Shown: piece after piece, positions 17,430 to 61,969 of the stretch
Position numbering within the stretch: position 1 is the first letter of the stretch
Layout: every line of letters begins with the position of its first letter
Assembly (NCBI GenBank): GCA_951406725.2
Contig: OX597815.1
Location: 107,012,001 to 107,076,000 of the forward strand
Source of the DNA: Octopus vulgaris
Lineage: Eukaryota
Direction of reading: 5' to 3'
DNA length: 64,000 nt
Position numbers and translations under genes: made by a program
The notes under the pieces: model-generated
Databases searched by the model: none
Told to the model about the DNA's origin: nothing
What the model saw: only the letters and a program-made list of their open reading frames with translations

Positions 17430-17432
<3 letters not shown>

Positions 17433-27270: not shown

Positions 27271-27299
27271 AGCAAAAAAAGAATGGATGGATAGGTGGA

Positions 27300-27895: not shown

Positions 27896-27899
27896 TAAA

Positions 27900-30357: not shown

Positions 30358-30559
30358 CCCTTTTGTTATCATATTTCTGTTGAGATTCTCTCTCTTTCTT
30401 TCAATTTATTTTAAATATAACAAAGAATTTAGTAAAATAACTTAGTTACCATTAAGTTAGTGTTAAGAACATAGAATTTTTCACCAAACTTTAGTTACAA
30501 TTTAATTCAGAACTTTTGAAAACAAAGCATTAGTCCTAGAGCCAGTCGTATCAAAAGGG
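30358..30559. mobile_element. piggyBac-like MITE
   Basis: Ends CCCTTTT(T)G.TA / TATCAAAAGGG, flanked by TCAA and TTAA. Confidence 0.55.
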
Positions 30560-31790: not shown

Positions 31791-31812
31791 GAAGTCCCAT
31801 GTATAGCAAGGA

Positions 31813-32029
31813 CAAGAGGGTGCTGAAAAGTTCCTGGCTTTGGGTAAGAGAAAATACAGGAGGAACAGTGAATTATGGTTTTATTCAACATATTCCCCTC
31901 TCATATACAAACACTTATTGCAGCAGTTCTTCAGTTTTTCTAAGCCCTGTAAAAGAACTCAGATGGTTGGGCCTCCAACCAGGCATATTGTGATACCCTT
32001 AAAGCCAGCAGCTTTTCAGCACCCCCTCA
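31813..32029. mobile_element. Mariner-derived MITE
   Basis: TIRs GAGGGTGCTGAAAAGTTCCTGGCTTT / AAAGCCAGCAGCTTTTCAGCACCCCCTC. Confidence 0.8.
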
Positions 32030-32189
32030 TAAATAACAGATCAAGATGAATGGGGGTATACTGTATAGCAGACACATCCAAACCATATGTTGATGACATG
32101 GATAATCAAGTGGTAATATAGCTAGTCAAATAAAGTAATATATCTTTCTTTCCACTAATACTGCATTAACAATTAGGAGTTTATAACTG

Positions 32190-32272
32190 AAGGAGAAAAA
32201 AAAAACATTTGCACACAAAAACATTTAAGCAATGAAAAACAAACAATTTTAGGGAGATAAAAAGCCTTTATT
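32190..32272 (-). terminator. Candidate distal polyadenylation signal of the GW182 gene
   Basis: Minus-strand AATAAA at 32272-32267, followed about 20 nt later by a long GU/U-rich tract TTGTTTGTTTTTCATTG...TGTTTTTGTGTGC...TGTTTTTTTTTT. It coincides with the boundary between TE-rich and TE-poor sequence. Confidence 0.55.
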
Positions 32273-34409
32273 TTCTTTTAGTCTGAAGCACACTACAGCA
32301 CAATATACAATTTCAGCATTTCTCTATTCAATGAACCAATAAAAAGAAAAAGAACAAAAATGTAGTAAAAATAATAATTACAATAATAGTAATGACAATA
32401 ATAATAATAATTTTTATGCATGTTCTCCAAGATGTGCCTAATTCTTGTTTCAAGAAAGAAACTCTTGATATATTTCCCAAACCATGAATAATAAAGATAA
32501 TAATAATAATGATAATAATAATTAAAATGGGGTGGGGGAGAGAAGAGGAAGCTGCCCAATCTACCCTAAAATGGATGTACTGTGCTTTGACAAACAGTCT
32601 TTTTTGGTGATTTTTTTTCTGCAGTTTTTGGTAGTTTTTACATTTATCCTTTTTTTTTTCCCCAATATTTGTTTTGAAGTAAAAGTAAAACTGTTTTAAA
32701 AAAATGTATAATGACAGTGCTGCCATAAGCAAGCAATTTTAATGTATATTGCCTCTGTATACTAAGACATTTATGCAAACACAGAGTACACACCTGTAGC
32801 CAAAAAAAAAAGAAAGAAAATATAAATACAATAATGGCCAGTTTAGTACTGTCTGTAATAACAGCAGATGGCTACCACTGAAGAACAGAAAGAGAAGAGA
32901 GGTGTGAAGAAGGAATGAGTTAGGAGTGGTTCTCAGTTCTTAACACCAACACTGATTGTGTGTGTGTGTGAGTGTGTGTCTGTGTGTAGGATTTTGAAGG
33001 TGGAAAGGCCAAAATTGATCAAAAGCAGACAGTGGAGAAAAGTCTTATTTTTTTTTATTTATATATATATATTTTTTTTACTTTCAATTCGAAATATGTA
33101 ATAACGGGATGGGAGGGAAAAGGGAGTGTCTAATTTCAGAAAGAAATGTAGTGAGGAGGAAGGGTGGAATCACAGATTTTCTTTCTTTCTTTTCTTTTTT
33201 TAAGATTTTTTAAAAATTTATTTCTCAGACTTCTCCAAAAACAAAAACATAAAAAAAAGTATTGTTATGAAAATTAATTTACCATGAGATTTTTGATGGA
33301 ATTTTGGTTTTATTCTGATTTTGCATTATTTCAATTCTTCATAATTATGATAGAAACAAAGGGAAAAATTATAAATAAGGGCTGCAAATATCTAGTGTGT
33401 AAACAGGAAAAAAAAAAGGGTGGGGAATAGTCATGAATATGACAATCATCATTATTATTATTCTTATTCTTCTTATTACTTGTTTCACTTCACTATCATT
33501 ATTATCATCATTATCATTATTTTGGTAATACTGCATAAACAAGCAAGCAGGTAAATAAGGCCATCACTGATATTACAGACAATATCATACAGTCTCTTTA
33601 ATATTATTTTTTATTTATTTTTTTGGCTGGAATATAGAAAAAACTAAAAAGAGGGAAGAGTTGATGGGGGCGGGAGCTTTCTTCAATGCCCTCTATATCA
33701 GACATTTTACATTATAGCAATAAGATTTTGGATGAAATGGCTGCCCCAATGAGTATCGTGATATCCACAAGTTAAAATATTTAAGATTTTCTTTTTTTTC
33801 CTTCATGCCAAATAAAGGGGAGAGGGATGTTCGTATTTTAAATGAAAGAATAAAAGTATTATCTTATTGAATGATCATTTTCTTTCGAAACAATTTTCCA
33901 ACTTGCTTTCTTTTTGTTTCAAAGATGAATTTCAGAATTTCAATAAGAATAAGGTAAAAATTGAGTGATTAGTAGTGGCGGAGGTGGAGGAATTAATTTC
34001 ATTTATTAAATTTCATTTCCAAATGCCAACGTTACACATATAAGAGACACACAAAAGACTTGCAGTTTTATCACTGGCCTGCTCAGCCTTCCAACAATAT
34101 AACATGTCTAAAAGTACATAGTTATAAGAATTTTGCACTTTTTCAAATGAAATTACAAATAGCAATTCACAATGTTTTAGTGGGGAGGGGCTGGATGCTT
34201 TTTTTTAAAAAAAACAAACATTTTTAATGAATTTTACTACATCTTTTGTTTTCAACAGTTAAAAATTATTTTACATATACATTTTGGTATGTGTTTATAT
34301 GATTATGTATATGTGTGTGTGCATATATATATGCACATACATGTGTATACAAATATACATACTCACAAGCATAAATATATGTAAACATACATAGTGTATG
34401 TATGTGTGA

Positions 34410-34452
<43 letters not shown>

Positions 34453-36417
34453 CATATTTGCATTTTTCTGTCTTTGTTATAATGTACTATTTATATTGAG
34501 GTCAATTTTTGTACTAATTTTTATGTTTTTCTTGTTTTTTAAATTTAAATCATATTCACTACATCTGTTTTTGGTTTTCAATGTTTGGGCCACACTTCCA
34601 TTTTAATGAAGAAAAAAAAAACAAAAAATGTAGTGAAGATATTGGGGAAGGGAAGGGGACAGGAAGAGCTATCAGTCACCAACCCTGCATACCATATTTG
34701 ACAAAGACATTTGGGATTTCTTGAAAGACTTTAAACATACAATTACATTAATGTATTAAAAAATAAAAAAACGTTATATTTTAATTTTTTTTGTTTTTTT
34801 TTTGTAATTTTTAAGGGTATATATGATTATTTAGATTTTTTTTGGTACTATTGTACTTTTTTTTTTGTTTCAAAAGCAGCAGTCGGCACCACAGCTTTTT
34901 TTTTTTTTTAATTTATTCAATTTTCTTTGTATGTCTTAAATGACTGGTTGTTAGTTGAATTTCATATAGTCCACAGCCAACACCTTCATATCTACAAAAA
35001 CTTGCAAAACAATGCAATTCTCTATACAGCTGACCAGGCAGAGCTGTTCGATGTTCACTCCTCTTTCTCTTTCTTAAACTCACTCTCTTTCTCTCTCACA
35101 CACTGCAAAGTCATTATTTGCCATTTAATATCATAAGAATACTAGCAACAGCAATAATAGTCAGACAGTAGTGGTAGTAGTAGTAGGAATGAGAACTAAT
35201 ACTGATTGAAGCTAGATATTAAAGCTTATATCTCCAGTCTTGTATTATTATTATTATTATTATTTTTTTTGTTTACTTTATCTCAGTACTTGTTTTAAAC
35301 CAACTGATTGTACAAGATACAAGTTACACATATTTGACAATAGGCCCCAGTAACTAACTATCCCTACATCACTTAATGAAACTAACTTTCAAACATCTCC
35401 ATTTCTAAAGTGAATTTTCAATGTTGGAAAAGGAATGGGAAGGGATTAAGGGACTTTTAGTTTATACAGATATTTGTGTGTACATATGTATACATACACT
35501 TGTGTGTGTGTGTGTGTGTGTGTGTTCGTGTGTGTGTGTGTGTGTGTAGTAAATAGAGGAAAAGGCAATATGGAAAACCCACAAATTAACAGTATTTGAA
35601 CAGATATATATGATATGTTGAATACCTGGTCACAATGTTATAAAGATTGGAGTTCAGAACTGCAACCGGTCATATTTTATTTGGTCGGACTGCGGGAGAG
35701 TTAACTATAAACATTCGAGTATACATATGTGCATGTGTGCACATGCAGGAGAGACAGAGAAAGGAGAGATAGAAAGGGTAATTTATACCCACACACATGA
35801 TAGAGAAAGAGAGAGATTAATTATATAAATACACAAATACACAGGCACACACACAGACACACACATGCATACACAGAAGGTTAAAATGCAGAGTTGTTTT
35901 CTGTCATGATTAATTAATGAAGGAAGACTTTTCCTCAGGGAAAAATGCAGGAAGAAAATTAAAAAAAAAAAAAAAAGATGAAGTAAAAGAAATGAACAAA
36001 TAAAGAAAATTGATTATTTTACAAGAAATAAAAAAAACTCTTTAGAATGACATTGATACATATATATTTTTAAAAATCACATCAAGATGATAAATATAAA
36101 AAAATGGCAATCACACAAAGGTGAGACATTGAATTGACAGCTTCTTCCCTGAACTTAAAAAACTTATACAGGTAAATATATATGGATATACATTACACAG
36201 TTGCAATTGTTGTTATCCTCTTTTTTGCACACAAAAAAAAAGGTTGAGCTTTTCCATACACACATCTAGTTTGTTGTGTGCCATTATCAATTATGTATAT
36301 GGACAATATCATATATATGTATATATATATGTATATATATATATATGCATATATATGTATATATATGCATATATAAATATATATGTATATATATGCATGT
36401 ATATATATATATGCATG

Positions 36418-36456
<39 letters not shown>

Positions 36457-36974
36457 ATATATATGTATGTATGTGTGTGTGTGTATATAAGCAAGCACAC
36501 ACAACTAATTGCTTTATTAAAGCAGTATATCTAAGCTTACACAATCACTCAAGGATTTACCTCTGACCAATATACAAAACATATTGAGACTTGAATCATG
36601 CTCACAGCTACATACATAATGCAAAATAATAGTAATAATAATAATAATAATAATAATATTGAAAGCGATTATTGTACATTTACAGTTGAAAAGTCAAAGC
36701 ACGTTAAAATGGAGAAAAAAAAAGGGAACAAAACTAAACTAACAATGACAACAACACTAAATATAATGATAATTTGTTAATTATGTATAGAGTCATTTTT
36801 GGCAAGGCAATTTCAATTTAGTTAAAGCATTTTGCCAAAGGAACACAAAGCAGAATGTGCGATGGAATATAAACTTATAGCCCATGAATCAGACATCAAC
36901 TACATTATGACTCAACCAATGTGTCCAATAATAATAATAATAATAATAATAATATTCATAATAATAATGATAAT

Positions 36975-37187
36975 GGTTTCAAATTTTGGCACAATGCCAG
37001 CAGTTTTGGGGGAAGGGGTAAGTCAATTAGATCAACCCCAGTGTCCAACTGGTACTTATTTCATCGACCCTAAAAGGTTGAAAGGCAAAGTCGACCTTGG
37101 TGGAATTTGAACTCAGAATGTAAAGACGGATGAAATGTCACTAAGCATTTTGCCTGGCATGCTAACGATTCTGCCAGCTCACCACTT
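36975..37187 (-). mobile_element. SINE related to the 3775-4001 family, CpG-decayed
   Basis: Aligns with 3840-4001; many of the differences are CpG>TpG/CpA. Confidence 0.85.
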
Positions 37188-40100
37188 AATAATAATAATG
37201 ATGATAATATAATAATAATAATGATGCATTTAGGAACTACATTACTGAAGAGCAAATAAAATTTTTCGTTTCAAGTCCTTTCTAAGTGATCTAAAATATT
37301 AATTTTAAAAATACATCAGAACATGAATTCAATACGAAACTAACTCATGCTTAATAAACCAAAAACTAAAATATGTATATGTATTTTTTTTTAAGGCAAA
37401 AAGGTACATTACGACACAATCAAATAGGATATGTTACAAGTATATTCAACAACAGAAAGGAATTGGGGTTCTAGTGGGAGGGGCAGGGATAATTTGACAG
37501 CCAAGGTTTTACTGCTTTCTAGAAAGAAATTCATCTTGTCAGATTGCAGTACAAGTACAAAGGAAACACATACACCCATACACATTAAACTCACAAATGA
37601 CATGCACTGCATGTACAATATATATATACATATATATATATATATTAAACATGTGAGTAAATTAAGTACACCAGTTGCTCTCAGACAAAAAGTTTAGCAT
37701 CATAACATTATCACTTGAAGACCTACTTGTTGGCAACATAAGAGCAATAGTCATGGAATGTGATAAATATTCAAATGCCTTATCCAGTTTTAAGCATGTT
37801 TGGTTAAAGCAAATATATCACAACTTTTTTCTTATATTTTTTTTTAAGTGTTTTTTTTTCCTGTTGTTCAATCATATAATTTTTTTTAGATGCAGTCCCA
37901 GTGTGAATAAAGCTCAGAGGCATTTTGTTTTGTAAACAAATAGTGTTAGGATTTAAACAATAGTTATTTTTTTTTATTTTTTTATTTTTTTAATAAAAAG
38001 TCAACAAAGTAGTGTAGTACTAGAGCACATAGATGTAGTAAGCCATTTTCACAACCATCTTCAGAAAGGCAAGAAACATCCAACTAACTTCCAATTATAA
38101 GTCCTAAAAGCTGAGCAGCCTTTCTTTTGTTGTTATTTTTTTGTTGGGTTTTGTTTTTCTTTTTTTTTTTTCATTTTATTTTTTAAAATATTTTTACTTT
38201 TTTTTAATACCTAATGTTGGAATGACCAACCAAATATTACTTACTAAGATCTGGTAGTTCATTCAATATTTATTTTTAAGACAGGATAACTATATTGAAA
38301 TTTTGATTTATAAAATAATTGAAAATAAATAAATAAAAATTATGAATGACATTTTTATAATGCTCGTATAGTGTTAGTTATTTTCCAGTAAAACAAGCAG
38401 GCATCACATTATTTAATTATATAATCTTAGAATCATTGACCAAATGATTTTTAAAAATAAATAAATAATATTAACCATAATATTAATAATGATAAAAATA
38501 ATAATACAAATGAAGGTCAATTGATTAAAGAAATTCTTTAACTGTGTATGTTTTGACCACAAGATTGACAAGGTGATTCACTCTATATTATTTAGCATTA
38601 GAATCAAAACATTAACAATTTATCTAGAAAGCAGAAGTTATATACACTGACCTGTCCCTCAACACAAAAGTAAGGTCCCAAAACCAATAATGGACAAGAT
38701 AAAAAAAAAATATTAAAATAGTTTTCCCGTGAGTTTATAAATGATAATGAAGAAAACTTCGTTGACTGGCTCTTTTGTTTCATTAATTTCTTTGTCTTTC
38801 GTAATACATAAAATCCCTCTAGATTTCATGTTTGTTCATCGATTTTTAGTTTTCTTCCTGACATCTTTGTTTTGCACCATTTCTTGATAAATTTTATTTA
38901 TAAAAGAGAGAGAGAAAGAGAAAGAGAGAGAAAAAGATTGGTAGTGTTGTTTGAATAGCTTCCCCCAGATAAGATTTTTAAAAAATGATGATAATAATGC
39001 TCCTATTTCATATGCATAGAAAAACAAAAACAAAAAAACTTAGCTTATAATTTAGCACAGCAGTTGATTTATCTGTAGATGCATGGATCCATGCTGGATT
39101 TCTTTTGCAGTTGTATTTTGAAAACAGAACCACCAAAAGAAAGGGAAAGAGCCAGCAAAATAGGTGCATAATAGTGCCATGCTTGATTAATAATTAAAAA
39201 GGTTAAAACAACAAGAAAAAAAAGGAAGAAAATACAGTAAAAGGAAACAAATACAAGAGGAAAAAAAATTTTTTTTATAATAAACAAGAAAACAAATTTA
39301 AAAAAGAAAACCAAATAAAATATTGATAAGCGGGGCAGATTTTGTTTTTACATAACAATGAGTAGTACTTTTTTATCCTGAGTAGCATAACAAATTTAAC
39401 TTCGTGCATGCGTGTGTGTGTGTGTGTGCGTGCGTGTGCTAGTACATATGTCTATATGATGCTGTATGTGTAATAAGAGAGCAAAGAAGGGGATTTACAA
39501 GAGATGCTTGAAAGAAAAAAATTACAAATAAAATTTTGAATAAATTACAAAGGAAATGTAAAAAAAAAGGAAAAAAGTGCAGCCCAACATCATCAGCAGA
39601 TAGTTATCTCAATTGGTCAACTAACAGGAACATTGGTAGAATAGTAAAACAAAAAATAATTTTTAGTATATACTCTATCACCCAAAGCATGGCAGGAATT
39701 GTGAAATTCAATAAAGCTCCCTCCTCTTCCTCCTTATTATTAAAAAATAAATAAAAGACTAGACTAGAACTTCTTTTCCAAGTTGATAAACATTTGGGAA
39801 TTTTTGCTTTTTTCATCTTGAAGAAGTAATACTAGTCTATAAATAAAAATAATAAACTGATGCTACCTGCATTTAAGCAGTGCCAGCTTAATTAAGATTA
39901 TTTTCACTAAATGAATGTAGTGATATATGTGTTTATATGTAGATGCAAGCATGGATGGAAATTATACATATATACATATATATATATAAGACCATATGCA
40001 CATTCATAACTATGTATATGAATCTATTTAAGCATTGATGTATTTCTATATGTTTATGTATGTGCAGCAATTTCATATAGCACACATGTATACACATAAA

Positions 40101-43100
40101 CTTCTTGTGAATGACAACCAAATTAATAGCTTGCTAATTAATTACACTGCTTAATATTCTCTTAACGTTTTCATATCCCCGTTCCCAGAAGGCTATAAAG
40201 AGGTATTACCAAAATGAGCCCAAATTAATAGCAGGTAGTTTGGAATCTACTATGTGAATAGAAGAAGCAGCCATGGAGTAACATAGTAGGGCAGTTGATA
40301 GACAATTTTACAGCAAATAGACAAGCTTTCTCTTTTGTGGGCACATTTTTTTTCGTTTCATTATGCAAGTTGAAGGATAGTATAAAATTTCTGTATAACC
40401 TCTTAAGTATGTGGCTGGTCAAGTAGATTCATTAATGCTTTTGGAAGCACAAGCAAATATTTAAACCAGCAGCCTTGCATTCACTACATCACTTGATATA
40501 AAATGCATCAAATAGCTTCATCAACAAAAACAGAGTCTGTGACATACAGATGTGCAGGAATGCACATATATAGCAGATAAAAGTTGTATATCCAGTAGTT
40601 TCATTAAGACATCTTCGGTTGATTTTTTTTTATTTTTAAAAATTTTTCTTGTGTTTAATTTATCTTTTTTTTTTGCTTTTCCTAATCATAAGCAATCACA
40701 TCGGGATCAATGATATCAGTGACTAGTATCCCCAACCAATATTAAAAACCTGAACAGAACAGTCATTTTCTCTACCGTAGGATTTATTTTCCAGAGTTTA
40801 TAGTTTGTTTTTGCAATTTAGAGTGTGCTTGCATAATATGTTCCACTAGCATCCTACTGATAAGTTTCTACCCCCAATTAAATCAATTGTTCATGGGGCT
40901 TATGTGTGCATGCATGTTTGTGTGCTAAATATATGTGAATGTGCGTATATACACACACACACACACATATATATACACACACACACAATTGAAATGACCA
41001 AAGATCACAAGAGGAATGCATAATCGAGTTAATCTAGAGGTGGACAGGATTTTCAGTTTTTTTTTCTCCTTAAAGCAAAGAAGTTGTATTTGGAACTAAC
41101 AACTGTGGAGAGGAACAGGAATTCATTAATATGGATTCATATTAGCAGGCAAGATGGTTTTGACTAGATAAAAACATAACAAGATGGGTCAGGCTGGAGG
41201 TGACATTGGAGCAGTAAGGGAAAGAGAAGAAAGAATTGAAAATTAATTTTAAATATTCTCATCTTTAGACAAGAGAAATTCTTCCAGCTGTTAGCAATTT
41301 AGCTAGTTTAGCAGAAGAGTTACAGTTAGTTTATTATTATCATTGTTTTATATATATATATAGATATATATATATATATTTGCACAAAACTTTTACCAAT
41401 ATTGAAATTATTCAAACCAATAGCATTCTATAACTAGTTAAACAAGACAACAATTAACAACATATTTGTAGTTATGGCTCCAAAATTTCAAGACATATTA
41501 ACAAGGCTTTCTTCCCTTTTGTTTATATACAAGGGGAGTCTGGTAGTGTGGAAATAGCTTGGAAATCTATGAAAATGGTCACGAGTCGATATGATAAAAT
41601 TATAGTTATTAAACCAAAACATGAAATATTTATGTGAGTATGCACCTGTGTGTATATGTGAGACATAAAATATAAGATATTTTTAAAAACAATCATAGCC
41701 TGATTCAGGATAATTCTATACATTTCCAAAAGGTCAACCACAGGTAATGACCAAATATATAGCAACAAACTTGTGTTTGTGTGTTTGTATGTATGTGGTG
41801 TGTATGTGTATGTATATATATATATACATATGTATTATTTGAAAACATACATATTTGTGTATATGTATACATATAGACATATTTGTATATAAGCATATAT
41901 ATACTTACATACATACATATATACACACACATACAAATTTACTTAGATTGTTACACATAGAAATATCAAAATATCACTTTAGAACTAAGAGCAACTAGGA
42001 TGTCAGCAAGAGGAGATGATTATTATCCTCAGTTTAATGCACTAAAATGTATTAACATATTCTTTTTTTCCTTACTCAGTAAAGCTAACAGTCATTCAAT
42101 TTTCAATAACTCACAATTTGATACATTAAAAAACATCATTCCAGGAGTGTCAACTAGCTACGAATAATGAATAGAAAAAATGGTGCTGAGTTAAGAAATG
42201 TTTATAGGCAAAGACTTAATAGGCTACAAATGTATACCCATAACTAGTGACATAGTCCAATAATTTTTTTTACCTCTTCTTTCTCTCTTTTTTTTTTATA
42301 CATTTTTATTAAACCAATTGATTGCAAAAGACAAAAAAGGTCTAGAGAGTGATTGATTGTAGCTGACACACATGCATACATATAAGCATGCTTGGTACAG
42401 ACATTTTGTAATTTTACCCGTGTGCATCTATTGTGTGAGGAGAATTCACAAGACAGGTTTCTATTACAGTTCACAGTATTTCCTCAGCAGTTCTATAAGA
42501 TACACATTTTGTGAAAGAACATTAAAATGCTCTGCATCTCCCTTCTATATGCACCAGCAGCATTGGTAGTATATGTGAACAGGTTAAATGGAGGGAAGTG
42601 CCGGAGGGAGAGGAATTAGAAGGGAGAGAAATGTTTAGATGGTATTAGCACCATGAAGGGCACTATGAATTTTTTTTTTTTTTTTTTTGTTTTTAGTAAT
42701 TTGCAGAGGTAAAGCTTTTTTCTAATGTTAAAACCATCTATTTGTCAAAAGTTTATTTAGATTCAAATGTACACAGAAACATGTATTTGTACCATAGAAT
42801 AGGATTGGTATGTGTAAGTACTTTGATTACAAATAATGATGATGTTCTTCAACAATTGATTTATATAATACCAGTACATTCTGCCTTCTTGCTGTTCAGA
42901 GTATCCCTGAGATTCACAGCACCATATGGTTCTGGATATTCAAATATTCACAAAGAATGCAGAGGAGGGAGTGGGGCACCTTCAAATAGAACATTAGATT
43001 TTTTTTCTTGCTTTCTTTATATTATATAGTTTGGAGATATCTAAATATTTTAGTATTTCAAAAGTGCTACTGATATTCACCAACCTTCAGTATTATGATG

Positions 43101-48642: not shown

Positions 48643-48715
48643 TAAGTGTGTCTATGTCTGTATTACATATAGATACATAAGTGTGTCTATGTCTGTATTA
48701 CATATAGATACATAA
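48643..48715. repeat. Perfect 35-bp tandem duplication
   Basis: taagtgtgtctatgtctgtattacatatagataca occurs twice. Confidence 0.95.
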
Positions 48716-50204
48716 ACATACACACATACTCAAATGCATCCAATATTTTTCTTTTTAAAATTCAATTACCGTATTTAAAGCACTTTCACTTTTAAATGAG
48801 CAACAGGACTGCTATTATTATTGTCGTTGGTATTGCAGGTGTGATGGGGTTGAGGAGTGGTGGTGTTGCTGTTGGAAGAAAGTAGGCTTCACATTATTCC
48901 ATGTAAGCAAGGCAGGAAATGCTTTTTTTTTTTTTAAAGAAGAGGTCGAAGATAAACAGGGTGGAGAAATAATGGTTATATTAGATTCCTCATAGCAGTG
49001 GTGCAGCCAGAATGGTATATAAATATCAATGTTTTGTACATGTCATTCCAGCAAAATTTTAATAAAGGCTAATAAAAGGAATAAATTTTGAGTTTTTTCT
49101 TTCTTTTTTTTGGGGGGGGGAGGGGGGGTAAGGTAATGGGTAATTATAAAGAAAGGAAGTAATGAAGATGGCAAATAATTTTTAGAAAAAGAATATAAAG
49201 TAAATAACTTGATGCTACACTGGATGGAAACTTGTAACATATATTGTTAAAAATATTAATGACAACACCCCCCCCTTATATTTGATAATATGTTTTGCCT
49301 GCATAAAGGGAAATTACATGCTGACCATGTAAAATTTTTAGTATCATCTAAAATTCTGTTCTTACTAACATGAAAGAACAATGCTTAGTCTGCCTAAATA
49401 AGAGTCAGTCGTTCAATAAATTTTCTATTTTATACATACCCTGGCTGATAGAATGATGCCCTATGTTTAAAATCTGAGATTGTTTGAAACAAAAGCCAAT
49501 TTTCAAACATTCTCCTCTAACTGATTCTATTTTTGTTCATTCTTTGTCAACATGTTCAAAGACACCCTAGCAGAAGCATCAAAAGATTTAAGAATGTTTA
49601 TCACAGTAAAGAACTGTTAGTTGTGACTAAATGACAAATGATAATGAGAATAAGTCACAGCAATTTTTATATTAATTTTTTTTTCAGATGGGACAGCTTA
49701 AAAGAAAAAAAAAAAGATAAAGAAACATCTTTTTAAAAATCTTTATAAGATATATTATATAGATATACGTATATATTTTTTCGTTTGAAATATATGACTT
49801 TTAAAAATATTACTCTTCACTTGAAAAAGATTTTCTCCTCCTCTTCCTTTAGATATGTTTTCCAATCAAGAAATTTGACATTTCTTTCACATGCCTTGCT
49901 TCTTCATAATTAAGAGCCTAATGTTTCTAAGTAAACTTAATATGAAATCAGCTATAAATAAAGCACCAAAACAAAAACAAAAAAAAAAGAAAATAAAAGA
50001 AAAGAGAAAAGAAACCAATAATAAATAATTAAATATCCAAGTATATTTAGCTTGTTATTTAAATAAGAGTAAGGCAGAACTGGAAAAGATATTAGATAAG
50101 CAGACTAGTTTTCTCTTTGTAAAAATTTCTCAAATTACCAACAAAAAGCCAGTAATCCATTAAAAAGAAATGTTATTAATATTGATGATACTATATAATT
50201 GATT

Positions 50205-50420
50205 TCTTTTGATTTGGCACACAGCCAAATTTTTAAGGGAGATATACAGTTGGCTGAATTGATCCAGAATATAACCAGTACTTATTTTATCAACCTAAGA
50301 AGGATGAAAGGCAAAGTCAACCCCGGTGGGATTTGAATTCAGATCCAAAAGGGGCAAAACTTTATGCTGTAAAGCATTTAGCCCAATGCCTTACTGTCTT
50401 AGTCCTCACACCACCCTCGT
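50205..50420 (-). mobile_element. Old SINE of the same family
   Basis: ccagtacttattttatcaacc..aggatgaaaggcaaagtcaacc..ggatttgaa core. Confidence 0.7.
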
Positions 50421-51509
50421 GAAAGTACTCATAATAATAACAATAACAGTAATAAGAAAACCCAAGAACAGAAAGTAAGTTGATTGAAATTGGTAAAAAT
50501 AATTAATAACTTTCTATCACAGTATCTATGAGGGCTTTATTTTGACAGAAATAAGAAGTAAGGAAGCTATGGTCCTTGAAAGACAATGGAGAGAGAGAAG
50601 GCAGAATGATTGCACAACTCCAGCTTATATTTGAAGTTCATCAATATTCTAACTTATGAACCGTCTTAACATATAACTGAACAGCATCTTTCATAATACT
50701 TCTAGCAGTATGTCGTTGATAAAACTACAAAATGACAAAGAGATCAATGAAAGTAACTTTTAATCAGGAGCACATGTCTGAAAGCTTTCTTTTTGTCTAA
50801 TATTCACATATTCTTTGAGCAGTATATTTATTACCGTAGTCTGGACCAGCATTTAAACCTAGTAACAGGAATAAATGCATTCAATGTTCCCAATTTGAAC
50901 CTATGAAATAAATACATGTATGTCTATGTCATCTCCAGTATGGATATATTTTTGGTCAGATCAGGTTTTTTAGGGACTTTGAAAGGATCAATGTTTGAAG
51001 CTCTGTATGAGAGAAATAATCCCATACTGTGACATAAGACAACCAACTTTTAATGCATTTCCAATGAAATGTTTTCTAATTCCAAATGTGATTTTACAAA
51101 AATAAGCGACGTTTAATCACACAAGTATTGAAGAAATGATAGAAATAAAACTAAGTAATTAATGAGGCTTTCTCAACAGTAATATCTGCTAACTTACAAA
51201 GGTAGGAAAATATATGGGAGACAGTCAATAGCATCATATGAGAAAGAGAAAAAGAGAGCATTATGACAAGTGTGAGGCAAGAAGAGAATAAAAAATGTGT
51301 AGAAAATGAATTAAAGAATGCTATACAAAGATGAACAATGGCTTGGATCCAAAGGATAATCATAATTACAAATCAGTAGTCGATTGTCAAGTTTCAGTGA
51401 AAAACTAAAATATAAAATGTGAGGGAAAAAGATGAAATTCCAACTAATTTTTAAAATGAGCTTAGAATTTTGCCAACTTTATAAAGCTAATGATGTTTTA
51501 CATTTGTAG

Positions 51510-51700
51510 TAGACCACAATTTTGCAGGGAAGGAATATAGTAAATTAAGTCAATCACAGTACATGATTGATACTTATTTTAATTACTCTTGGAGAAATAA
51601 AAGTAAAGTCGATCCCAGCAGGATTTGAATTCCAAATACAGAAGGATGAAACTAAATACTGAAAGACATTCTGTCCAGTTATCTTATTCTGAGTCACTAA
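51510..51700 (-). mobile_element. Very old SINE of the same family
   Basis: tacttattttaatt..aaagtaaagtcgatcccagcaggatttgaa core. Confidence 0.55.
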
Positions 51701-54700
51701 TGTCTAATCTTATCAAATGAATGAAAGAGTTCAAATAATAATTTTGAAAATATTAAACTTCTTAAACTGATAGTAACATTGTGGGTTTATAGCAACAGCT
51801 CTCTTATTACATGTTTTATATTTGAACATTGGCAACATTTTTTTTTTTGTTTTTTGTTTTTTATGAAAGGAGAAAAGTATAGGCTTTTGGTAGCAATTAA
51901 AAAAATCTGACTGTCTTACTTTTAATTTGAGCATAATTTTTAAAACTAGAAGGCTTACGACAGATTTTGTTTCTTTTTATTTAATTTTAAATTTTGAGTA
52001 TTTATATATCTACAGTAAAAGTTATTTGCATTGTTTGAATGATAAATTTAATTTATTGAATGAAAATAAACAAACCAGAATTAAGTTTGATTTGAAAGAA
52101 GTTGTAATATAGTTTGGCAATAACTACAATAAGTAGATCTTGATGTCTTTTAAATTTTTTTCATAGACTTTTTTGTTGTTTTTAATGCTCTGAACAGAAA
52201 AAAAATTAAACCAGCAAGTATTATTGGTTCATCAGCTGAGATCCTTACTAGCTTCTGAGCTGAATAAATGGATAAACAGAGCAAAGTTCTTATTCCACAA
52301 CCAAACTGTGTGGAAGAGAAAGTGGGCAGTGACTGAAATTTCAACATTTAAGAATTGTCATTTGATAGTGGAATGATGGCAGGATTTAGAATTTTTCCTA
52401 AATAAACATGATTCAATTTAATTCAATTTCAGATAGGCTTATATAGAATATCAATGTTAAAGCAATGGAAATTAAACAGAAAAATGAATTTTATTATTCT
52501 AACACTATATATTAACCGTCCATTGCCACTATTATGACTGATGCTCCAGAGGAGTCTTTTGATGTATCTTACCAACTTCACACACCTGTAATGAAACCAC
52601 TGATATTCATACATTGTATATTAATATACTGAGAAGTAATTTTGTATTTTTTAACAGCTTTCATTCATATTATAATTGGGAGCAGTTTAAAAGATTGGGA
52701 TATAAAGACTAGAACATTTTTGTAATTCTTCCCTCATGAAGATCAGAACAGCTGCAGGCCCAGCCCTTCCCTAACAAATACAAGAGAAAAAAAAAAAAAA
52801 AAAAGGAAAAGGCAGGAAAGAAGACACAATTTTCTATTTATCAATTAGAGAGTAAGAAAATAGAAATTAAAAATGTTTCAACAATATTTTTAACACATAA
52901 ATTTCGTATTTCAAAAGGTTAACTCTACAGAAAATTAAAGAAAAAACAAAACAAAAAACATACAACCAAGATGATAGCCTAACTGGATGATATAGTAAAA
53001 GAGGGCTATACAGTTAGAGGTAAAAGCAATATAATGAGATCAGCAATGAAATGTAACTTCACAACTGCTAGGCACAAGAGAGCTGCTGACTAATTTTCAA
53101 GGCAAGGAATTTTAGATTTTTGTTTCCATTGTGTGTGTGTGTGTGTGTATGTGTGTTTGTGACCCTTTAAAACTCAAAACAATCGTAAAATATGAAAAAT
53201 AATGAGTTCCTATAACCAAAATATAATAAAGTAAAAAGAGGAAAAGATCTGTATAAGAAACCTTAGAGTAGCACCAATGCAAAGATATTCTTTATCAATA
53301 TTTAGGAATTTGTTGTTATTGTTAATCAAAATATTTTAAAAGACATACAGGCAGAATAAGAACATGAGGGGCCAGTTGACAAATTTTCTTTCTCCTTTAA
53401 CCAATGAAATACTCATAGAAGATAAAAGGATGGAATGGAAGAAAGAAATGAAGAGGATAGAAAAAAAAAAACAAGATAAAAAAGACATTGCAGTTACTGA
53501 CCAATAACTCAAAGGAATGATGTTTTAAAATGCATAAGGTTCAAAGTGAGGGACAATGATTTGTCCAAAATTTGGCTTTTTACTTTTTTTTTTTTAATTT
53601 TTAGAATATCATCCATAGGGCAATGATAAAGAAAAATAGATGAATTTAGAAAAGCTGTAGTTGTTAGCAGAATTAGTTACAGCCAATTGAAACAGAAGAA
53701 TAAAAATAATGAGATATGTATTACTGGAACTAAGACTTCCTATAAATGAAACATTTCGCTACAATTCAAAATGCCTCTTAGATATTTTTGAGTGGAAAAG
53801 AAAAAAAAAATTTTTTTTTGCTTTTTTAAAAATTATATATATATTTTTTTTATATCTAGAAAGTCCAGATTAAGCAGTTTAAATAATTTCAACTTTTTAA
53901 AAAGCATAGATTATCACAGTTTTACAATACACAAACGATAAATTCTTAGATTCTAGTTGTTAAGATATAAATGAGTTGCATATGGGTGAATCTATATGAA
54001 AATGAATATTACCAGTATTTAAGAAGTCAACATAATGAGGTGAATATGGAATCAGTCTCATGGTTTAGCAAAATTGGAAGCTTTTTAATTTACACTTTTT
54101 TTTTTGTCACATATTAAACAGTGCTTTCTCCAAACCTACTTCAATAACTTTTTTTTCAATTTTAAATACATTTCCTTATAATATTTTGGTTGGTTTGCTT
54201 CATTTTTGTCGATTCATATTTGATTGGCTGGCAGAAATTCATAAGACATCACAGAACATCAGTGAACCATTATGGACAGTTCAGATATTTGTCAAATTAA
54301 TCACATCACTAAATGGAATAAACACCTTTTCTTTCTTTTCATTTAAATAAAGTATCCTGGAATAACTTAAAACAGTAGTGTAATTTGTGTTTCCTTGAAA
54401 ATTGATAAACAATTCTATTGAAACTTAACTGGGCCTCCAAAATTTTGAGTAATGATACTAACATCTAACTTTAGAAAATTGTTTCTGCTATTTTACATTG
54501 AAAATACAAGATTAATTTTATGCTGCAATGAGATAATTAAGGACTTAAACAGCAGAGCAAGTACTAGGGAATGCATTTTCCCCGTAATATATAACTTAGA
54601 AAGAAACAAATGTTGAAAAATTCTTGGCAACAATTTAACTATACAGTATGCTTTGTTTATTGTACTTTTAATAGTTGTTGCTATGCTGTTTGTATGCGTG

Positions 54701-56375
54701 TGTGGATGTATGAGAGTATGGGTTTAATAAGGCCACTAAAGTAAAATGTCAGAAAGCCAGCAGTATGGTCATTGCGTAGTAAAATAAGACCTATTAAGTG
54801 AAGAGGCTTTGATGGTAAATTCCTCATAGGAATTAGATATTTAACAGAAAGCACCAGTCTATTGAAGGTATTTCAAACCTTTGTAATGTAAGAGGAAAGA
54901 CAAAAATAAAATCAAGAAATGAAAGTATATGAACAGATTAAGCTCAAAGCACACACTGAGTTATATTAGACTTAAAATTTGATTGAAAAAAAAAAAAAAA
55001 AAAAAAAAAAAAAGAAAAATAAACTTCTGAGCAGAAATTCTGAAAAGGAAATTTGCTTTCCTTTCCAAGATAGTAATCACCGAATGAAATGTATTTTACA
55101 ATGTACTTTTTTTTAGTGTTTTCTTTTTTTTTTTAAATAATGGTGAAATTTTACTTCACTGGGAAGATCTCAATTATTTTTCTATTTATAACAATAAAAA
55201 GATGTAAGAACACATAAAAGAGAAAACAAAACATATACCACAATAGCAATATTAGTACACGTGTATTAGTGTTTGAGGATCACTGGCTGCACCACTGACG
55301 GTGTATGTACTAAGTTAAAATAAATTGAAAAGTACAAACTAATGCAAGGAATATAAAATGACCACAATAAAAAAATTAAAAAAAAAAAAAAAAAAAATTA
55401 CAAACTTGAAAAAAACAAAATGTTCTAATTCCAGAAAACAGTCAGAAATGAGATACAGAATTTTCAAAAGCATATACACTAGTATTAAAAAGTAAATGAA
55501 TATTGATAGGAGAATAGTATTAACTAATGACAAATCTAAGTGTTTTAGTACTTAGAATGGATTAATTTCTTGAGAAAAACAGAATAGTTACTAATACAGT
55601 GAGATGAGAATCTTCTCTTGTTCATATGGTACTTGTACAAGCTATAGTTTAGCTGTCAGAAGCAGATGGTGGAAGTACTTGTTTTTAAATGCCCACCACT
55701 ATTAAAAACTTCTGGAAGGGATAAACCATATATACATATTATGTATATACAGATATATATATATATTTACACACACACACACATACATATATATATACAT
55801 ATATATATATGAGATGAAAAAGATGGATGGAGGTGTAAATACGATTGTTTAATATTTAGGTTTAACAGTTGACATTTTAAAGCTTGTATTCTGCCTTTAT
55901 AAAAATTTTCATATCTTCTATTTAGCCAGAAAAGAAAAACTTATTCAGAAGATTACCACATCTAAAAATTATATATACATAAAAGCAGAAAAAGTAAGGG
56001 ATGAAAATCACCAAACTGTAACAATCTATTACAACTGCTACGAAAGTGCTATATGACCTGAGGAAAAGCTGCCATTTCTAATACTGGAATGTGTCAAGTT
56101 AATATACACAAGTTCCTATGGCTACACAAAATACCTTATTATTTGATCCACAACCCAGAAAAAAAAAAAGAAAAAAAAGGAAGTGGGGAAACATTTACCA
56201 TCACTCACAAACAACAGATTTAAAAATTAATTGGAACTAATTCATAAAAGCTAAAATGCATACATATACTCAAGGTGGTTGTCTGTGTGTGTTTATATAT
56301 ACATATTTATGTCATAGTATATTGTAAACATTTCATTATATATCAATGTGTGTAACTAGGTGTGCATGTGTGTGC

Positions 56376-56408
<33 letters not shown>

Positions 56409-57726
56409 AACACACACATAATATATAAAGAAGTGCTCATGTCAATGACAGAGACAAGACATAAAAATATCTAAATAGGTTTGTACAAAACAAGCCACAA
56501 GAGGCAGCTTTGAGTTTTAGCAGTAGCTGTGGCAGTAATTATTATTGATATTGTGGTGATAAATCTGCCTCTCTAGCAGCAAGTCATAATTAAGCAGGTG
56601 CAAGATCTATTCAGTATATTTGGGGTACACAGACAGACACACTGACATTTTGCAACACACATACATGTAGATTATATTTCACAAACACATATACAAATGA
56701 CATACTTTTTTTTTTTATTAATTATAATAGGTTGTTATTGGGAAAGATACGACATACAACACACAGCCCGACTGGCAAGTTAACAAGGCCTTTTCACATT
56801 GATTGTCGTATAAAAAGAGATATAGAGGGAGAGAGAAAAGAAAGAGAAAGTAATGACTGCAAAGGGGGGGAAAATGGTAAAGAGAGAGAGGAATATTTCA
56901 ACAGACTCAGCAGTGTTATTTATGTTTTTATGAGTGTTTTGTGTATTGTTTTCATCAAGCTGCCACAAGCCATTTCGTAGCAGAAAAGGGTACTGCGTTG
57001 TTTAGTTGGTTTCAAATAGGTTTTTCATTTAAAATTTGCTTTTGTTAATCATAAAGATGATGATATAGTCATTATTTTAATAATAATAGTAATAATAATT
57101 ATTACTACTATCATTATAGCTAGTATGATAACAATAATAACATGGTTTAAATATATTTAAATTTTTCTTTTTACTTCTAAAAGAAAAGAAAAAAAAAATT
57201 TTTTTTCTTTTAAAATACAGTAATTTAAAAATTAATCAATTTGCAATGTTTTCCTTTCTACAGCTACTTGGTTCATTGTTTAAATTGTTAAAAGTTATAT
57301 AATCAAAATTACTCACTTTTAAATTACAAATCTATTTTAAGATGAAGTTTTTCAATGACTAACAATGAATGAAATTAATTTATTTAAAATATTTTGATGA
57401 TGAAGAGAATGACCATTTGTCCCTAATTTCTTTTTCTTTAATAATTTAAAAGTACTAAGATGCATGTATATATGCTATACATACATATACACACACATGT
57501 ATATACATATTTATATGTGTACATATATCTTATGCATACAAATATTCACACATATCTATGATTTATGGATTTGTTCAATCATCTTTTGTGTAAGTATAAA
57601 ATAGTCCAATAGACTCAAGTCAAGGCAGCAGCATAATTAGCTTACTCTGATAATGTATCTTCAAATGTTACACAAGGCCAAAAAGTTTGTCACAAATCAA
57701 AATTGAAATGCCACCTGTAAGTATGG

Positions 57727-57764
<38 letters not shown>

Positions 57765-60700
57765 TACATATACATACATGTGTGTGTGCATGCATGTGAG
57801 TGTATGTGTGTATTTATATATATATGTATACACATATACATATATACACACACACATGTATGTATTCAATCAACTGAAACCAAAAGTTTCCATAAACACT
57901 GTGGCTTGTTTCATCAACCAACCATTTTGATTCAAAATGACTGACTGATGAAACAAGGTATAATGTTTCTTGAAACTTCTAGTTTCAGCTGATCAAATTA
58001 AATTGACACTCTACTTCTGGTATTGAGTACTTTTTCTCCAGTTTGTTATTACTAGAATGTATTTTAATGCTTTTGGTTTTTCTTAAACTCCTTCCTTTTT
58101 TTATCTTATAACTGATCAAAACTGTTAGCTTGAATTATTTAGAAGTCAAGACTGCCTTTTTGTTTATTATTAATTTTAGGGAAGGTGGAGGTTGTTTTAA
58201 CTTTTTCCTTCTTTTTAAATTAAAGAAAATATCACAAAATGAAGGCTAGCAACAAATTTCACACCATTATTAAAAAAGAAAAGCAATTAAAAAATTTAAA
58301 TGTTCAAATAAAAATCAAATGAAAAAAAATAAATATTTATATATCAATTTTAGTTTTACTTCCCATCTTGTATTTTTGTTTTTAAACTCAATATATTTAA
58401 TATATTTTGAAGCCAAAAATTAAACAACCCCAAAATTATTAATTTAATTTTAAAAAATTGCTGAAAAGTAAATTGAAATGAAAGTGTTTTATTTAAAATT
58501 TTTTTTTTACTTGTTATCTTTTTAAGGGGAGGAATCCCTGTCTATGTAATTATGAAATGCAAATAATTTGTCAAAGTTAATACAATTTATATGTGCTTAA
58601 CTCTCATGCTTTGTTTCTTTAATTTGTTTGGTTTTATTCCTGTGCCTTTAGTCATTTACAGTTAAAAGGAATATTTCATCACATTGTTGCAAAATGAATA
58701 AATGATTTAACTCTCACATAATAACTTCTTGTTATTAATACAAACTACCATACACTTAAATTAAGAAAAGGAATAAGAGAACATGTAGATTCACTAAAAT
58801 AATCGTTGTAAGAAAAATAAGAATGACAAATGAAGATAAGAACAGAGTTTAGGTGGTTTATAGAAATTATGAATGGCAATGTGAATAGCATTACCAACCC
58901 CCTCTCCCTACAGAAAGACACCACATTTGATAATTTTTAAACATTGGTTTAAAAAGTTGAAAAAAAAATTTGATCAATACTGGCAAATTCACAGAGGAGA
59001 ATGTACAGAATAATATGTATGTGTATGTATGTATGTGCGTGTGTATAGATATAGATATACACACTCACAGACACAATGTATTTGTGTGTTTGCAGGTGTG
59101 TATGTATATATGCATACATATACATACACACAAACACATACATATACATATATCATGGAAGAGCTTACCTCAGAAAATACTAACAGCATTTTCAGCTTTT
59201 TTAAAAATCTGTAAACAATCCTCATGTTTGCTTTTAGAAAGTTTTGGATTAAGCAACTTGTTCAGTTCTATAATTTAGCAGCTGAAAAGAGGCAGATTGA
59301 TAATTAGAAATAATAATAATAATAATGATGATAATAATTTTTAAAAAATGCAGAGATCTGGTTAATTATTTACGAAATTTTCTTGTACCCTACCAAAGAT
59401 TTTGCACCCACATTCGATGCATATTTCAAACAGTTGAATTTAAATGTTACATTCTCTGGAATTCTCCTCAAGTGGAACAAATGCAGCTATTAGCAATAGC
59501 TAGGTCAGCAAATTTAGTTTGATGAGATTTTTTTTTTTTTTTTTATAATAGGATTTTTTTTTAATGCAAGTAGTCTTATATTGTGCATGATTTTAGATTT
59601 GTGTTTGTTTTCTTTCTTAGAAAATATACAATACTTAATGAACCATGATGTTAACTCACAACAACTTACAATTAGAAGCTCTAAGCAGTGATTTTTTACA
59701 AAAATATATTTAAAAATTACAGAAAAAAAAAATGTTTATTTATCTTAATTTTAATTACAAAAAATCTTTTTGCTCTCTAAATTAACTCATTTGTAGTATG
59801 AAAAAATGGTTATGCTTTGTGACAGAACACAAACCAATCGTACATTATTTTGGCACAGACAAAATATTTTTAGATTGTAGTCAAATTTCAGAAGGAAACA
59901 AAAAAAATAAAAAATAAATAATAATAATAATAAATAAATAAAAAATAAAGTAAAAAATAAGAAAAACATTTTCTCATTATCAGCTATTTTCTGTATCACC
60001 ACTCTAAAGACTGTCATTGCAAACATTCTAAACCAAAATAACTAGCTTCTAGTCTGTTGGTTTTAAATGTAACAATAATTTGGAATTGTTTGATATTTGG
60101 AAATTCTTCAAAGATATTTACTGTTTATTTAGTATGTGCTTAAAAAAAATGTAAATTGTTGATCAAGTTTCAACTCAATTAAAATTACTGTTAAAATTTT
60201 TTTTACCCTTTGGTAACATTTTAAAAGAGTGGAAAAAATAGATTACGACGAAAGGAAAAAAATATCTATGATGGCATATAATCTAAAAATATTTTTCACA
60301 AGAACATAAAAATTAAAAATTGGCCATATACTTTGTATATCAAGATTATTAATTAGTTTTCTCTCTTTTTTTGTTTGTTTTGAAGAAGCAATACTTGTTC
60401 TTTCAATCATACATACCTCCTTCTTTCAATCATACATGCTTTCCTTATTCTTTCAATTACACAATTCCTAGATCTTTCAGTCATACATAGTTGCTGTTTT
60501 CTATATTTTTCTTCTAATTTTTTTTTTTTTAGTTTTATTTTTACCCACCTTGGTTTTATTACATATGCATGAAGGTAAGAATCAACATCATCAGAGTAAG
60601 CATAAGCTCTACATCATTTCTATCATTCTCACTCATTCTTTCTAATCTTGTCATTTCTTCACTCAATAGGATTTGTGTCTATATACGGCTTTGAACAAGC

Positions 60701-61486
60701 ACCGCTTTCTGCTGCCAGCAGTTCCTAGCTGCTGTTGCTGCTGTAGGAACTAGTTATATCTCCATTGCATTGGACAATAAAACTAGGCATAACTTCAAAA
60801 GATTATCACATGACAAAATTTGACTATTTCTGGTCAACTTTAACTGTCACTTTTTTGGGGGAATGGGGGGTGGGAAAGTTTATATATATACATATACATA
60901 TATATATATACATATATATATAATATAATATAATATATATATATGTATATATGTATGTATATATATGTGTGTATATTTGTTTTTCTTCTGCTTCAAAAAC
61001 AGTTCATACAACAGCTGATTGCACCCGATTCATAATTTATAATATAATTAAATGACTTTTCAAATTAAATTTCATTCTCTATAATGCTGCATGGTTATCA
61101 GATCTTTTTTTTTGCTTTTTTTTTTTACAATGTTTTTTTTTCTTTTAATATATAGAAAGAAAAACAAAAACGAACAAAGTATGAATGAATATGTTGCCAT
61201 GAAAGCTACGAGATCTGGTTTCACAGAGGAGATTTAGTTGTTTCATTATTTTTGTTTTTAAAATAACAAGTGAAAGGACAAGGGGTTATGTTTATGTACG
61301 TGTAGCCATTTGGGTAGGAGTCAGATAAATAAGAAATAAAAACTAGAGATCACAGAGAGAGACACAGACAGAGACAAAGTGATAGAGAGACAAGACAAAT
61401 ATAGTACAATGAAGAAAGTGTGGTGTGAGTTGGATGGAGGAAAAATAAAAGAATAAAAATTTTCACAGGGTAGGGAGAAAAAAAAA

Positions 61487-61969
61487 TCACATAGATTCTC
61501 CCCCCAGAATATTGCCAAGTAAAGGAGCAGAACCATGGTCATCCATTGCAACTCCGCCCCAGAGGCTATTGTTCCACATAGTGTTCCCTGGAAAACCTCC
61601 AAATTGAACAGAAGCAGGCATGTTCCAGTGATTTTCGTTGCGGCTGCTGTAGTGTGGAGGTGCACCAGGTTGTGGTGGGGGTGGAGGCCGATAATCTGAT
61701 TGAGAGGACTGCGACCATTGACTAGTGGATGGGGGTGCTGCTGAAGTAGTTGAACTTTGCTCCACTAAGTGGTTAGCCTCACGTTCTGAAACAAATTCAG
61801 CTAATATGGTTGTGTTTCCAAGAACACAAGTATTCAAAGCCTTTTGAGCCTTCACTGCTTCATCTTTGGATGAATAACGTACAAGGGCTTGGCCATGGTT
61901 GAGGCTAAGGTAGAAAAATTGCAGAGGTCCATGTTGTTGGCACAGAGTTTTTAAAGTAGAGCCATCAAT
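61487..61969 (-). CDS. TNRC6: GW182/TNRC6 (gawky) terminal coding exon: RRM and C-terminal silencing region
   Basis: [59 protein letters not shown]...LWG...[11 protein letters not shown] is the characteristic GW182 RRM and C-terminal LGGESM. Acceptor ttttattattccAG ends at 61970, phase 0. Confidence 0.97.

What the first reader, a model, noticed from the sequence alone, without database searches (positions are those of the whole stretch)
32250..61486. Candidate ~29-kb 3' UTR on GW182/TNRC6, the core miRNA-silencing effector
Seen: downstream of the stop codon, 29 kb has no credible exon, only about three old SINEs (versus near-continuous TEs and long microsatellites left of 32 kb), strong CpG depletion and many minus-strand U-runs. 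It ends abruptly at an AATAAA plus GU-rich element (32272-32190). Established: TNRC6 genes have long UTRs, and cephalopod neural mRNAs tend to have long UTRs alongside an expanded miRNA repertoire. Inference: purifying selection on one enormous terminal exon, probably with tandem alternative poly(A) sites; this would be exceptionally long for any animal mRNA.
Basis: partly seen in the sequence, partly recalled or inferred. Interest (0 to 1): 0.75.

Follow-up and report, generated by a model that had tools for sequence, protein, structure and literature searches.

The report
Giant 29-kb UTR on octopus GW182
The octopus gene for GW182, the protein that carries out microRNA silencing, is followed by 29,000 non-coding bases that carry nearly twice the chance number of microRNA target matches on the message strand only; they likely form one untranslated tail, longer than any in the papers we read, that would let microRNAs throttle their own silencing machine.

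Summary
The gene is GW182/TNRC6, single copy; its last coding exon ends at 61487. Better evidence: (1) 17 small contig sets (54-199 Mb, 6 studies, likely RNA) hold 77-93% of sampled words of the distal 9.9 kb; (2) the AATAAA at 32272 ranks 1 of 109 for downstream GU content, and one run's contig is calculated to stop at 32247; (3) seed matches to 20 conserved microRNAs occur 66 times against 37-40 expected on the sense strand, 47 against 24-27 in the 19 kb not tested with reads, and at chance level antisense, in introns and intergenic DNA; (4) no CpG-rich promoter or Pfam domain lies inside. One unspliced 29,236-nt UTR is likely (0.75) but continuity is not shown by reads; tandem poly(A) use and brain specificity are untested. 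It would exceed human GRIN2B (25.4 kb) and fly mei-P26 (22 kb).

The parts
61487..61969 (-). Coding part of the last exon of GW182/TNRC6 (second part of the RRM, C-terminal tail, TGA)
   Evidence: AG acceptor before 61969 and stop seen; Pfam RRM_1 over cut-off; Drosophila GW182 RRM 2wbr E 2e-19; spliced relative P0212 ends at the same residue
63054..63115 (-). Small upstream coding exon (start of the RRM)
   Evidence: tblastn of P0212; AG/GT ends read
32251..61486 (-). Candidate unspliced 3' UTR, 29,236 nt (terminal exon 29,719 nt)
   Evidence: Word shares 0.77-0.93 for 32200-42100 in 17 small runs; microRNA seed excess on this strand only; composition of 42.1-61.5 kb like the distal part; continuity inferred
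32267..32272 (-). Poly(A) signal AATAAA
   Evidence: Rank 1 of 109 AATAAA/ATTAAA hexamers in 24000-61480 for downstream G+U content, two upstream UGUA
32247..32251 (-). Inferred cleavage site (T followed by four genomic A)
   Evidence: Calculated tables 2 and 8: one contig of run X1 covers 86.0 bases of the bin and so stops at 32247; one run only, letters not shown
32190..32246 (-). GU/U-rich downstream element
   Evidence: Sequence
25000..32246 (-). CpG-depleted but repeat-rich zone beyond the poly(A) site, likely methylated read-through before termination
   Evidence: CpG o/e 0.0-0.5 down to 25000, 0.65-1.1 left of it; repeats 17-19%
36919..37235 (.). Old interspersed repeat fragment (SINE-like)
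   Evidence: blastn against 400 kb of other genomic stretches
50182..50438 (.). Old interspersed repeat fragment (SINE-like)
51477..51678 (.). Strongly decayed repeat fragment; holds three seed matches that were masked in the final count
57869..57993 (.). Repeat fragment
59007..59146 (.). Weak repeat fragment
33371..33680 (.). Bin holding a short high-copy repeat fragment (exact ends not set)
   Evidence: Very high summed depth in all four runs

Best explanation
The 29 kb behind the GW182 stop codon is likely one unspliced 3' UTR that ends at the poly(A) signal at 32272, and it is predicted to act as a landing strip for many microRNAs that would damp GW182 itself. Shown: gene identity, stop, absence of coding frames and promoter-like CpG inside, best poly(A) context at the far end, presence of the distal 9.9 kb in small contig sets, and a sense-strand-only excess of seed matches. 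Inferred: polymerase reads through about 100 weak hexamers and cleaves near 32250, giving an mRNA of roughly 34-35 kb; microRNA-loaded Argonaute binds the sites and recruits GW182, which deadenylates its own message, a negative feedback loop that ties silencing capacity to total microRNA load. A constitutive long end is a little more likely than a brain-only extension, since no strong proximal signal stands out and the enriched seeds belong to both neural and non-neural microRNAs.
For:: 20 of 20 listed runs hold 32200-42100; 17 have only 54-199 Mb of contigs against a 2.8-Gb genome (6 studies, 2 organisms) and hold 0.77-0.93 of 1062 words, as much as or more than the three large runs (0.60-0.82); none is on record as RNA, so RNA is inferred from size; contigs without a mismatch cover 32532-32659 (X1) and 32532-32948 (X5); the large run X19 bridges 31993-32332; arithmetic puts the end of the X1 contig at 32247, 20 nt behind AATAAA, with 25 letters unaccounted for (one study, a weak hint); 20 seeds, repeats masked, sense 66 against 36.8 (order-2 matched) or 40.2 (order-3), p at most 0.0006; 42.1-61.5 kb 47 against 24.3-26.6, p 0.0002-0.0012; antisense 30 against 33-36; introns 75 against 74-75; intergenic 53 against 53. 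The second, separately chosen set of 12 seeds repeats the first (41 against 23.5, p 0.004); ten windows of 42.1-61.5 kb score closer to the distal part than 27 intron windows (p 8e-5 to 2e-4); no 1-kb window with CpG o/e above 0.43 (113 windows); 1 donor-like site in 29 kb against 1.6-2.7 per 10 kb elsewhere. PMC12809406 (passages): human AGO and TNRC6 mRNAs are top microRNA targets and form feedback loops.
Against: No read or contig evidence at all for 42100-61486, and no listed contig spans even the laid 9.3 kb. The seed excess is weaker in the RNA-held distal part (19 against 12.4-13.1, p 0.06-0.09) and in 52-61.5 kb taken alone (p 0.08 and 0.17); 8-mer sites are enriched in the first set (11 against 4.5) but not in the second (10 against 7.9). 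Several seeds show no excess (let-7, miR-124, miR-9, miR-7, miR-137, miR-153, miR-184, miR-252, miR-278). No cross-species conservation of sites could be tested. The PUM motif is as frequent antisense and in introns. CpG and repeat poverty do not discriminate. Binding and feedback are untested.
Confidence: 0.75

Rival explanations
1. GW182 mRNA ends within a few kb of the stop at a proximal site; the distal RNA is a separate molecule (a long non-coding RNA, or a cleaved, independently stable UTR piece) that shares the poly(A) site at 32250.
For: 44 AATAAA lie on the sense strand inside the stretch; run data cover only the distal third; independent downstream RNAs were first proposed for several mammalian loci (PMC3638137, passages).
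Against: No CpG-rich promoter-like window inside, whereas the gene's own 5' end shows the rise (134-143 kb); seed excess is strongest in 42-52 kb; the far hexamer has the best context of 109; most such mammalian cases proved to be UTR extensions on Northern blots (PMC3638137).
Confidence: 0.12
2. The UTR is spliced: a short last exon near 32.2-33 kb is joined to a donor behind the stop, and most of the 29 kb is intron seen as unspliced precursor in deep runs.
For: An intron of the same gene is equally repeat-poor; one donor-like site (59171) and five acceptor-like sites exist; 27 A-rich stretches could prime precursor RNA.
Against: 33.2-61.3 kb carries 63 seed matches against 36-39 expected while true introns carry none in excess; its word composition differs from the introns; runs as small as 54 Mb hold 0.83 of the distal words; an intron far behind the stop would invite nonsense-mediated decay (established knowledge, recalled).
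Confidence: 0.08
3. The stretch is neutral read-through inside a methylated gene domain; its features come from mutation bias and the seed excess is chance.
For: CpG depletion and microsatellite poverty extend over introns and beyond the end; gene-body methylation running past the end of genes is described in octopus (PMC9476566, passages).
Against: Repeat cover jumps from 2-4% to 17-19% at the poly(A) site; the seed excess is strand-specific, absent from introns under the same methylation, and repeats in a second seed set.
Confidence: 0.05

Closest known systems
Very long 3' UTRs of mammalian brain genes (Grin2b about 19 kb and Ntrk3 16.6 kb by Northern, PMC3638137; human GRIN2B last exon 27,303 nt with 1,857 coding, the longest human exon in PMC6549324)
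   Same: One huge unspliced last exon with a distal poly(A) site; distal part easily mistaken for a separate RNA.
   Different: Here 29,236 nt, about 4 kb longer than GRIN2B's 25.4 kb; not validated by Northern; gene is a general silencing factor, brain specificity unknown.
Drosophila mei-P26 3' UTR (18.5 kb in D. melanogaster, 22 kb in D. virilis, called one of the very longest known in an invertebrate; PMC5707805)
   Same: Invertebrate, post-transcriptional regulator, very long tail.
   Different: About 7 kb longer; tissue-specific shortening is shown for mei-P26 and untested here.
miRISC self-feedback on human AGO1/2/3 and TNRC6A/B/C mRNAs (PMC12809406)
   Same: A GW182-family mRNA rich in microRNA sites.
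   Different: Single gene in a mollusc; sites inferred from over-representation, not from conservation or binding; much greater length.
Octopus 3' UTRs in general (median 350-380 nt, longer in neural genes, 4,800 genes with tandem poly(A) sites; PMC9699675)
   Same: Canonical AATAAA end.
   Different: About 80 times the median; too long and too rich in A stretches for the full-length cDNA methods used there (inference).

Membership tests
GW182/TNRC6 gene | N-terminal GW/WG-repeat Argonaute-binding region | tested here: met
   976-codon open frame at 79678-76751 (window coordinates extended into fetched neighbours) with 30 W and 11 GW/WG, matching mollusc TNRC6
GW182/TNRC6 gene | C-terminal RRM of GW182 type | tested here: met
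   Pfam RRM_1 over cut-off; only solved-structure hit is GW182 2wbr, E 2e-19
GW182/TNRC6 gene | Middle UBA, M and PAM2-bearing regions | tested here: inconclusive
   Exons at 66-71 kb align to the matching parts of mollusc TNRC6 proteins; domains were scanned only on the relative P0001, not on the octopus exons
GW182/TNRC6 gene | Best relatives are named TNRC6/Gawky; single copy | tested here: met
   Top named hits; 1 match in own genome among 59 scored candidates
Very long 3' UTR | Follows the true last coding exon | tested here: met
   Spliced relative P0212 and mollusc relatives end at the same residue
Very long 3' UTR | Canonical poly(A) signal and used cleavage site at the far end | tested here: inconclusive
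   Signal ranks 1 of 109; contig end at 32247 calculated for one run, tail letters not shown
Very long 3' UTR | Present in RNA over its whole length | tested here: inconclusive
   Distal 9.9 kb held by 17 small runs, none on record as RNA; 42100-61486 not examined in runs
Very long 3' UTR | On one molecule with the coding region, unspliced | not testable with these tools
   Needs Northern or very long reads; only indirect support
Very long 3' UTR | Sense-strand excess of microRNA target sites | tested here: met
   66 against 37-40; antisense, intron and intergenic controls at chance
Neural tandem alternative polyadenylation | Several used poly(A) sites, distal one favoured in brain | not testable with these tools
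   Tissues of the runs are coded; no raw reads were offered

The most novel reading that the evidence does not exclude
Octopus makes, in most tissues, a single GW182 mRNA of about 35 kb whose 29-kb tail is the longest 3' UTR on record for an animal and serves as a sensor of total microRNA load: it grew with the coleoid microRNA expansion, collects sites for old and cephalopod-specific microRNAs, and sets the cell's silencing capacity by feedback.
Probability: 0.3. Interest if true: 0.72.

Novelty: new member of a known kind. Interest (0 to 1): 0.55.

Why it matters
Octopus has the largest known invertebrate gain of microRNA families (PMC9699675). A record-length, site-rich tail on the one gene that executes silencing gives a concrete place to test whether the silencing machine's own control grew with that expansion. 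It also warns that octopus 3' UTR lengths measured by cDNA long reads may miss the longest class, which affects single-cell counts and target prediction.

Tried and rejected
No RNA holder was on record among 20 listed runs; RNA is inferred from size. Parts without cover are not counted either way: X1, X5 and X13 show depth 0-1 in several single-copy bins left of 32131 where X19 shows 9-17 (would favour the 3' end), but also 0-2 in X1 and X5 in single-copy bins of 33061-34280 (21 in X13 in the last bin), and X13 shows nothing at 32131-33370 (would favour a short last exon); the tool drops records unseen. Contig depth was not used to rank parts of the gene. 4 of 20 runs were laid, on 25001-34280 only. 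CpG depletion, microsatellite poverty, U-runs and repeat poverty were rejected as exon markers. Longest contigs of protein relatives (at most 3,490 bases for the closest cluster) give no UTR length. Metagenome loci L054-L058 are distant relatives on short contigs and were not studied further. Inverted repeats in the stretch are mainly AT microsatellites among the 25 shown of 1063; no editing substrate was claimed. Published 3'-extended annotations could not be read: the annotation file of PMC9699675 was too large and the searched supplements of PMC9712504 (3 files) gave no hit for the gene name; either may already hold this end. Earlier-finding look-ups returned nothing on this UTR.
Full report
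Gene. The minus strand carries a last coding exon from 61969 to a TGA at 61489-61487. It matches Pfam RRM_1, the Drosophila GW182 RRM as the only solved-structure hit (E 2e-19) and mollusc TNRC6 proteins at up to 54% over its whole length, and has one match in the 2.8-Gb genome. Upstream exons, including a tryptophan-rich frame with 11 GW/WG, lie in the fetched neighbours up to about 79.7 kb in extended window coordinates. An unnamed spliced relative (P0212) joins the same exons and stops at the same residue.

In 32250-61486 GC is 28.5% and CpG o/e 0.195, but the depletion runs from about 25 kb to about 134 kb, over all introns. That fits gene-body methylation, which in octopus can run past the end of genes (PMC9476566, passages seen). 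It marks a transcribed domain, not an exon. Against 40 stretches of 10 kb from elsewhere in the genome plus the region itself, repeats cover 1.7% (strict) or 4.2% (sensitive) of the stretch, 17-19% of the 8 kb beyond the end and 23-29% of flanking DNA; this small library gives lower bounds. However, the intron at 79.7-97.3 kb has only 2.3-3.0%. Sense U7+ runs number 49 and A7+ runs 63; A-rich stretches, not U-runs, are what set the stretch apart from introns (9.2 per 10 kb against 0.4-3.4). No frame passes a Pfam cut-off (0 of 150 scanned; 20 of 170 frames, mostly microsatellite, were not scanned; four weak hits under cut-off) and Rfam finds nothing.

The far end. Of 109 AATAAA/ATTAAA hexamers on the minus strand between 24000 and 61480, the one at 32272 has the highest downstream G+U content (0.78; next 0.68). 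For 32200-42100, all 20 listed runs hold at least 0.60 of 1062 sampled words. Seventeen are small (54-199 Mb of contigs, 6 studies, 2 organisms; 14 guessed RNA by the tool, none on record) and hold 0.77-0.93; three are large (1.0-3.8 Gb) and hold 0.60-0.82. A set 15 to 50 times smaller than the genome that holds nearly all of a single-copy 9.9-kb stretch is most simply a transcriptome (inference). Four runs were laid on 25001-34280. X1 and X5 have mismatch-free contigs on 32532-32948; the large run X19 bridges 31993-32332. In the bin 32131-32440, X1's depth equals 86.0 bases of its contig, which puts the contig's end at 32247, the last of four genomic A's 20 bases behind the hexamer, with 25 letters left over that may be tail or a longer repeat allele. 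This rests on one run and on arithmetic, so it is a weak hint. Uncovered parts, for and against, are listed under Tried and rejected.

The untested middle. (a) A Markov classifier trained on the distal 9.9 kb against introns scores ten windows of 42.1-61.5 kb above 27 held-out intron windows (p 1.8e-4 and 7.9e-5 for two word lengths; against the 12 nearest intron windows 8.7e-4 and 7.5e-5; windows are not fully independent). (b) No 1-kb window of 113 has CpG o/e above 0.43, whereas the gene's 5' end rises to 0.8-1.3, so no internal promoter of the usual kind is seen. (c) One donor-like site in 29 kb against 1.6-2.7 per 10 kb elsewhere (crude patterns). (d) MicroRNA seeds. A first set of eight seeds was recalled, then confirmed against a mir-71/mir-2 cluster in this genome and a snail table (PMC9820140, passages and part 1 of the supplement). 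It gave 28 matches against 14.7-16.0. A second set was fixed beforehand as the 12 unused families of table S5 of PMC9699675 that the snail table lists (miR-219 is not in it): 41 against 23.7 (p 0.038). With stricter masking, which removes three sites in a decayed repeat, and control words matched in GC and expected count, the totals are 66 against 36.8-40.2 on the sense strand, 47 against 24.3-26.6 in 42.1-61.5 kb, 30 against 33-36 antisense, 75 against 74-75 in introns and 53 against 53 intergenic. The excess comes mainly from miR-2, miR-71, miR-8, miR-29, miR-190 and miR-22; nine families show none. It is weaker in the distal third (19 against 12-13), and 8-mers are enriched only in the first set. 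Since microRNAs act on mature mRNA (established), this is the best evidence that the middle is exon.

Mechanism. Shown: gene, stop, poly(A) context, seed excess, lack of frames and promoter. Inferred: read-through of weak internal hexamers (AATAAA 45 against 51.5 expected), cleavage near 32250, an mRNA of about 34-35 kb (UTR 29,236 nt, plus a coding region of about 1,500 codons or more, judged from relatives), and feedback in which Argonaute-bound sites recruit GW182 to its own message, as proposed for human AGO and TNRC6 (PMC12809406, passages). The 27 A-rich stretches would prime oligo-dT and break cDNA-based annotation. Tandem poly(A) use and brain bias are open.

Comparison and novelty. 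Longest validated mammalian UTRs were about 19 kb (PMC3638137, passages); the longest human exon is GRIN2B's last, 27,303 nt with 1,857 coding (PMC6549324, passages with tables); D. virilis mei-P26, 22 kb, is called one of the very longest in an invertebrate (PMC5707805, two passages); the octopus median is 350-380 nt (PMC9699675, passages; supplement PDF passages; tables parts 1 and 3). PMC8904962 (one passage) notes that the longest neural isoforms escape cDNA libraries. These papers are not a census, so 'longest' is limited to them. Searches that found no description of this UTR: (listings only; none of the 25 listed of 621 mentions octopus), name searches in PMC9699675 main text and two of three supplements and in PMC9712504 supplements. 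PMC9712504 (passages) assigned cleavage sites up to 60 kb downstream to the nearest gene, so its annotation, which I could not see, may already include this end. The preprint 10.1101/2023.05.16.540928 (passages) says nothing on this locus in what I saw. That vertebrate TNRC6 UTRs are long is recalled, not checked.

Verdict. Very likely a real, very long 3' UTR (0.75), a record-size member of a known kind on a telling gene. Interest 0.55.

Noticed in passing
L059:11-1570 (G000:C1:107570775-107573844): One mir-71 hairpin followed by at least seven mir-2 hairpins within 1.6 kb (six over the Rfam cut-off); miR-2 and miR-71 are among the most enriched seeds in the UTR.
   Followed up: partly
window 32251-61486, minus strand: Sense-strand A-rich stretches are 3 to 20 times denser than in introns (27 sites). 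They could bind poly(A)-binding protein, GW182's partner, or merely be tolerated; unexplained.
   Followed up: partly
L005:9001-L006:5500 region (extended window coordinates about 119000-121500): A CpG-rich patch (o/e up to 1.3) inside the otherwise depleted 5' introns; may be an alternative promoter or young repeats.
   Followed up: no
L002-L007 (extended window coordinates 79700-134000): About 50 kb of intron lies upstream of the large GW exon; its 3' 17 kb is nearly free of repeats while the 5' part is repeat-rich.
   Followed up: partly
window 8139-8729 and 26244-26752: Decayed mariner-type transposase pieces (Pfam HTH_48 at 8469-8729; the second recognised by eye).
   Followed up: partly
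window 2109-4500, 6074-6436, 16384-17914, 23630-24226, 28024-28874: Broken retroelement-like frames (reverse-transcriptase/endonuclease-like, gag-like, zinc knuckle); only a weak zinc-knuckle Pfam hit, labels otherwise by eye.
   Followed up: no
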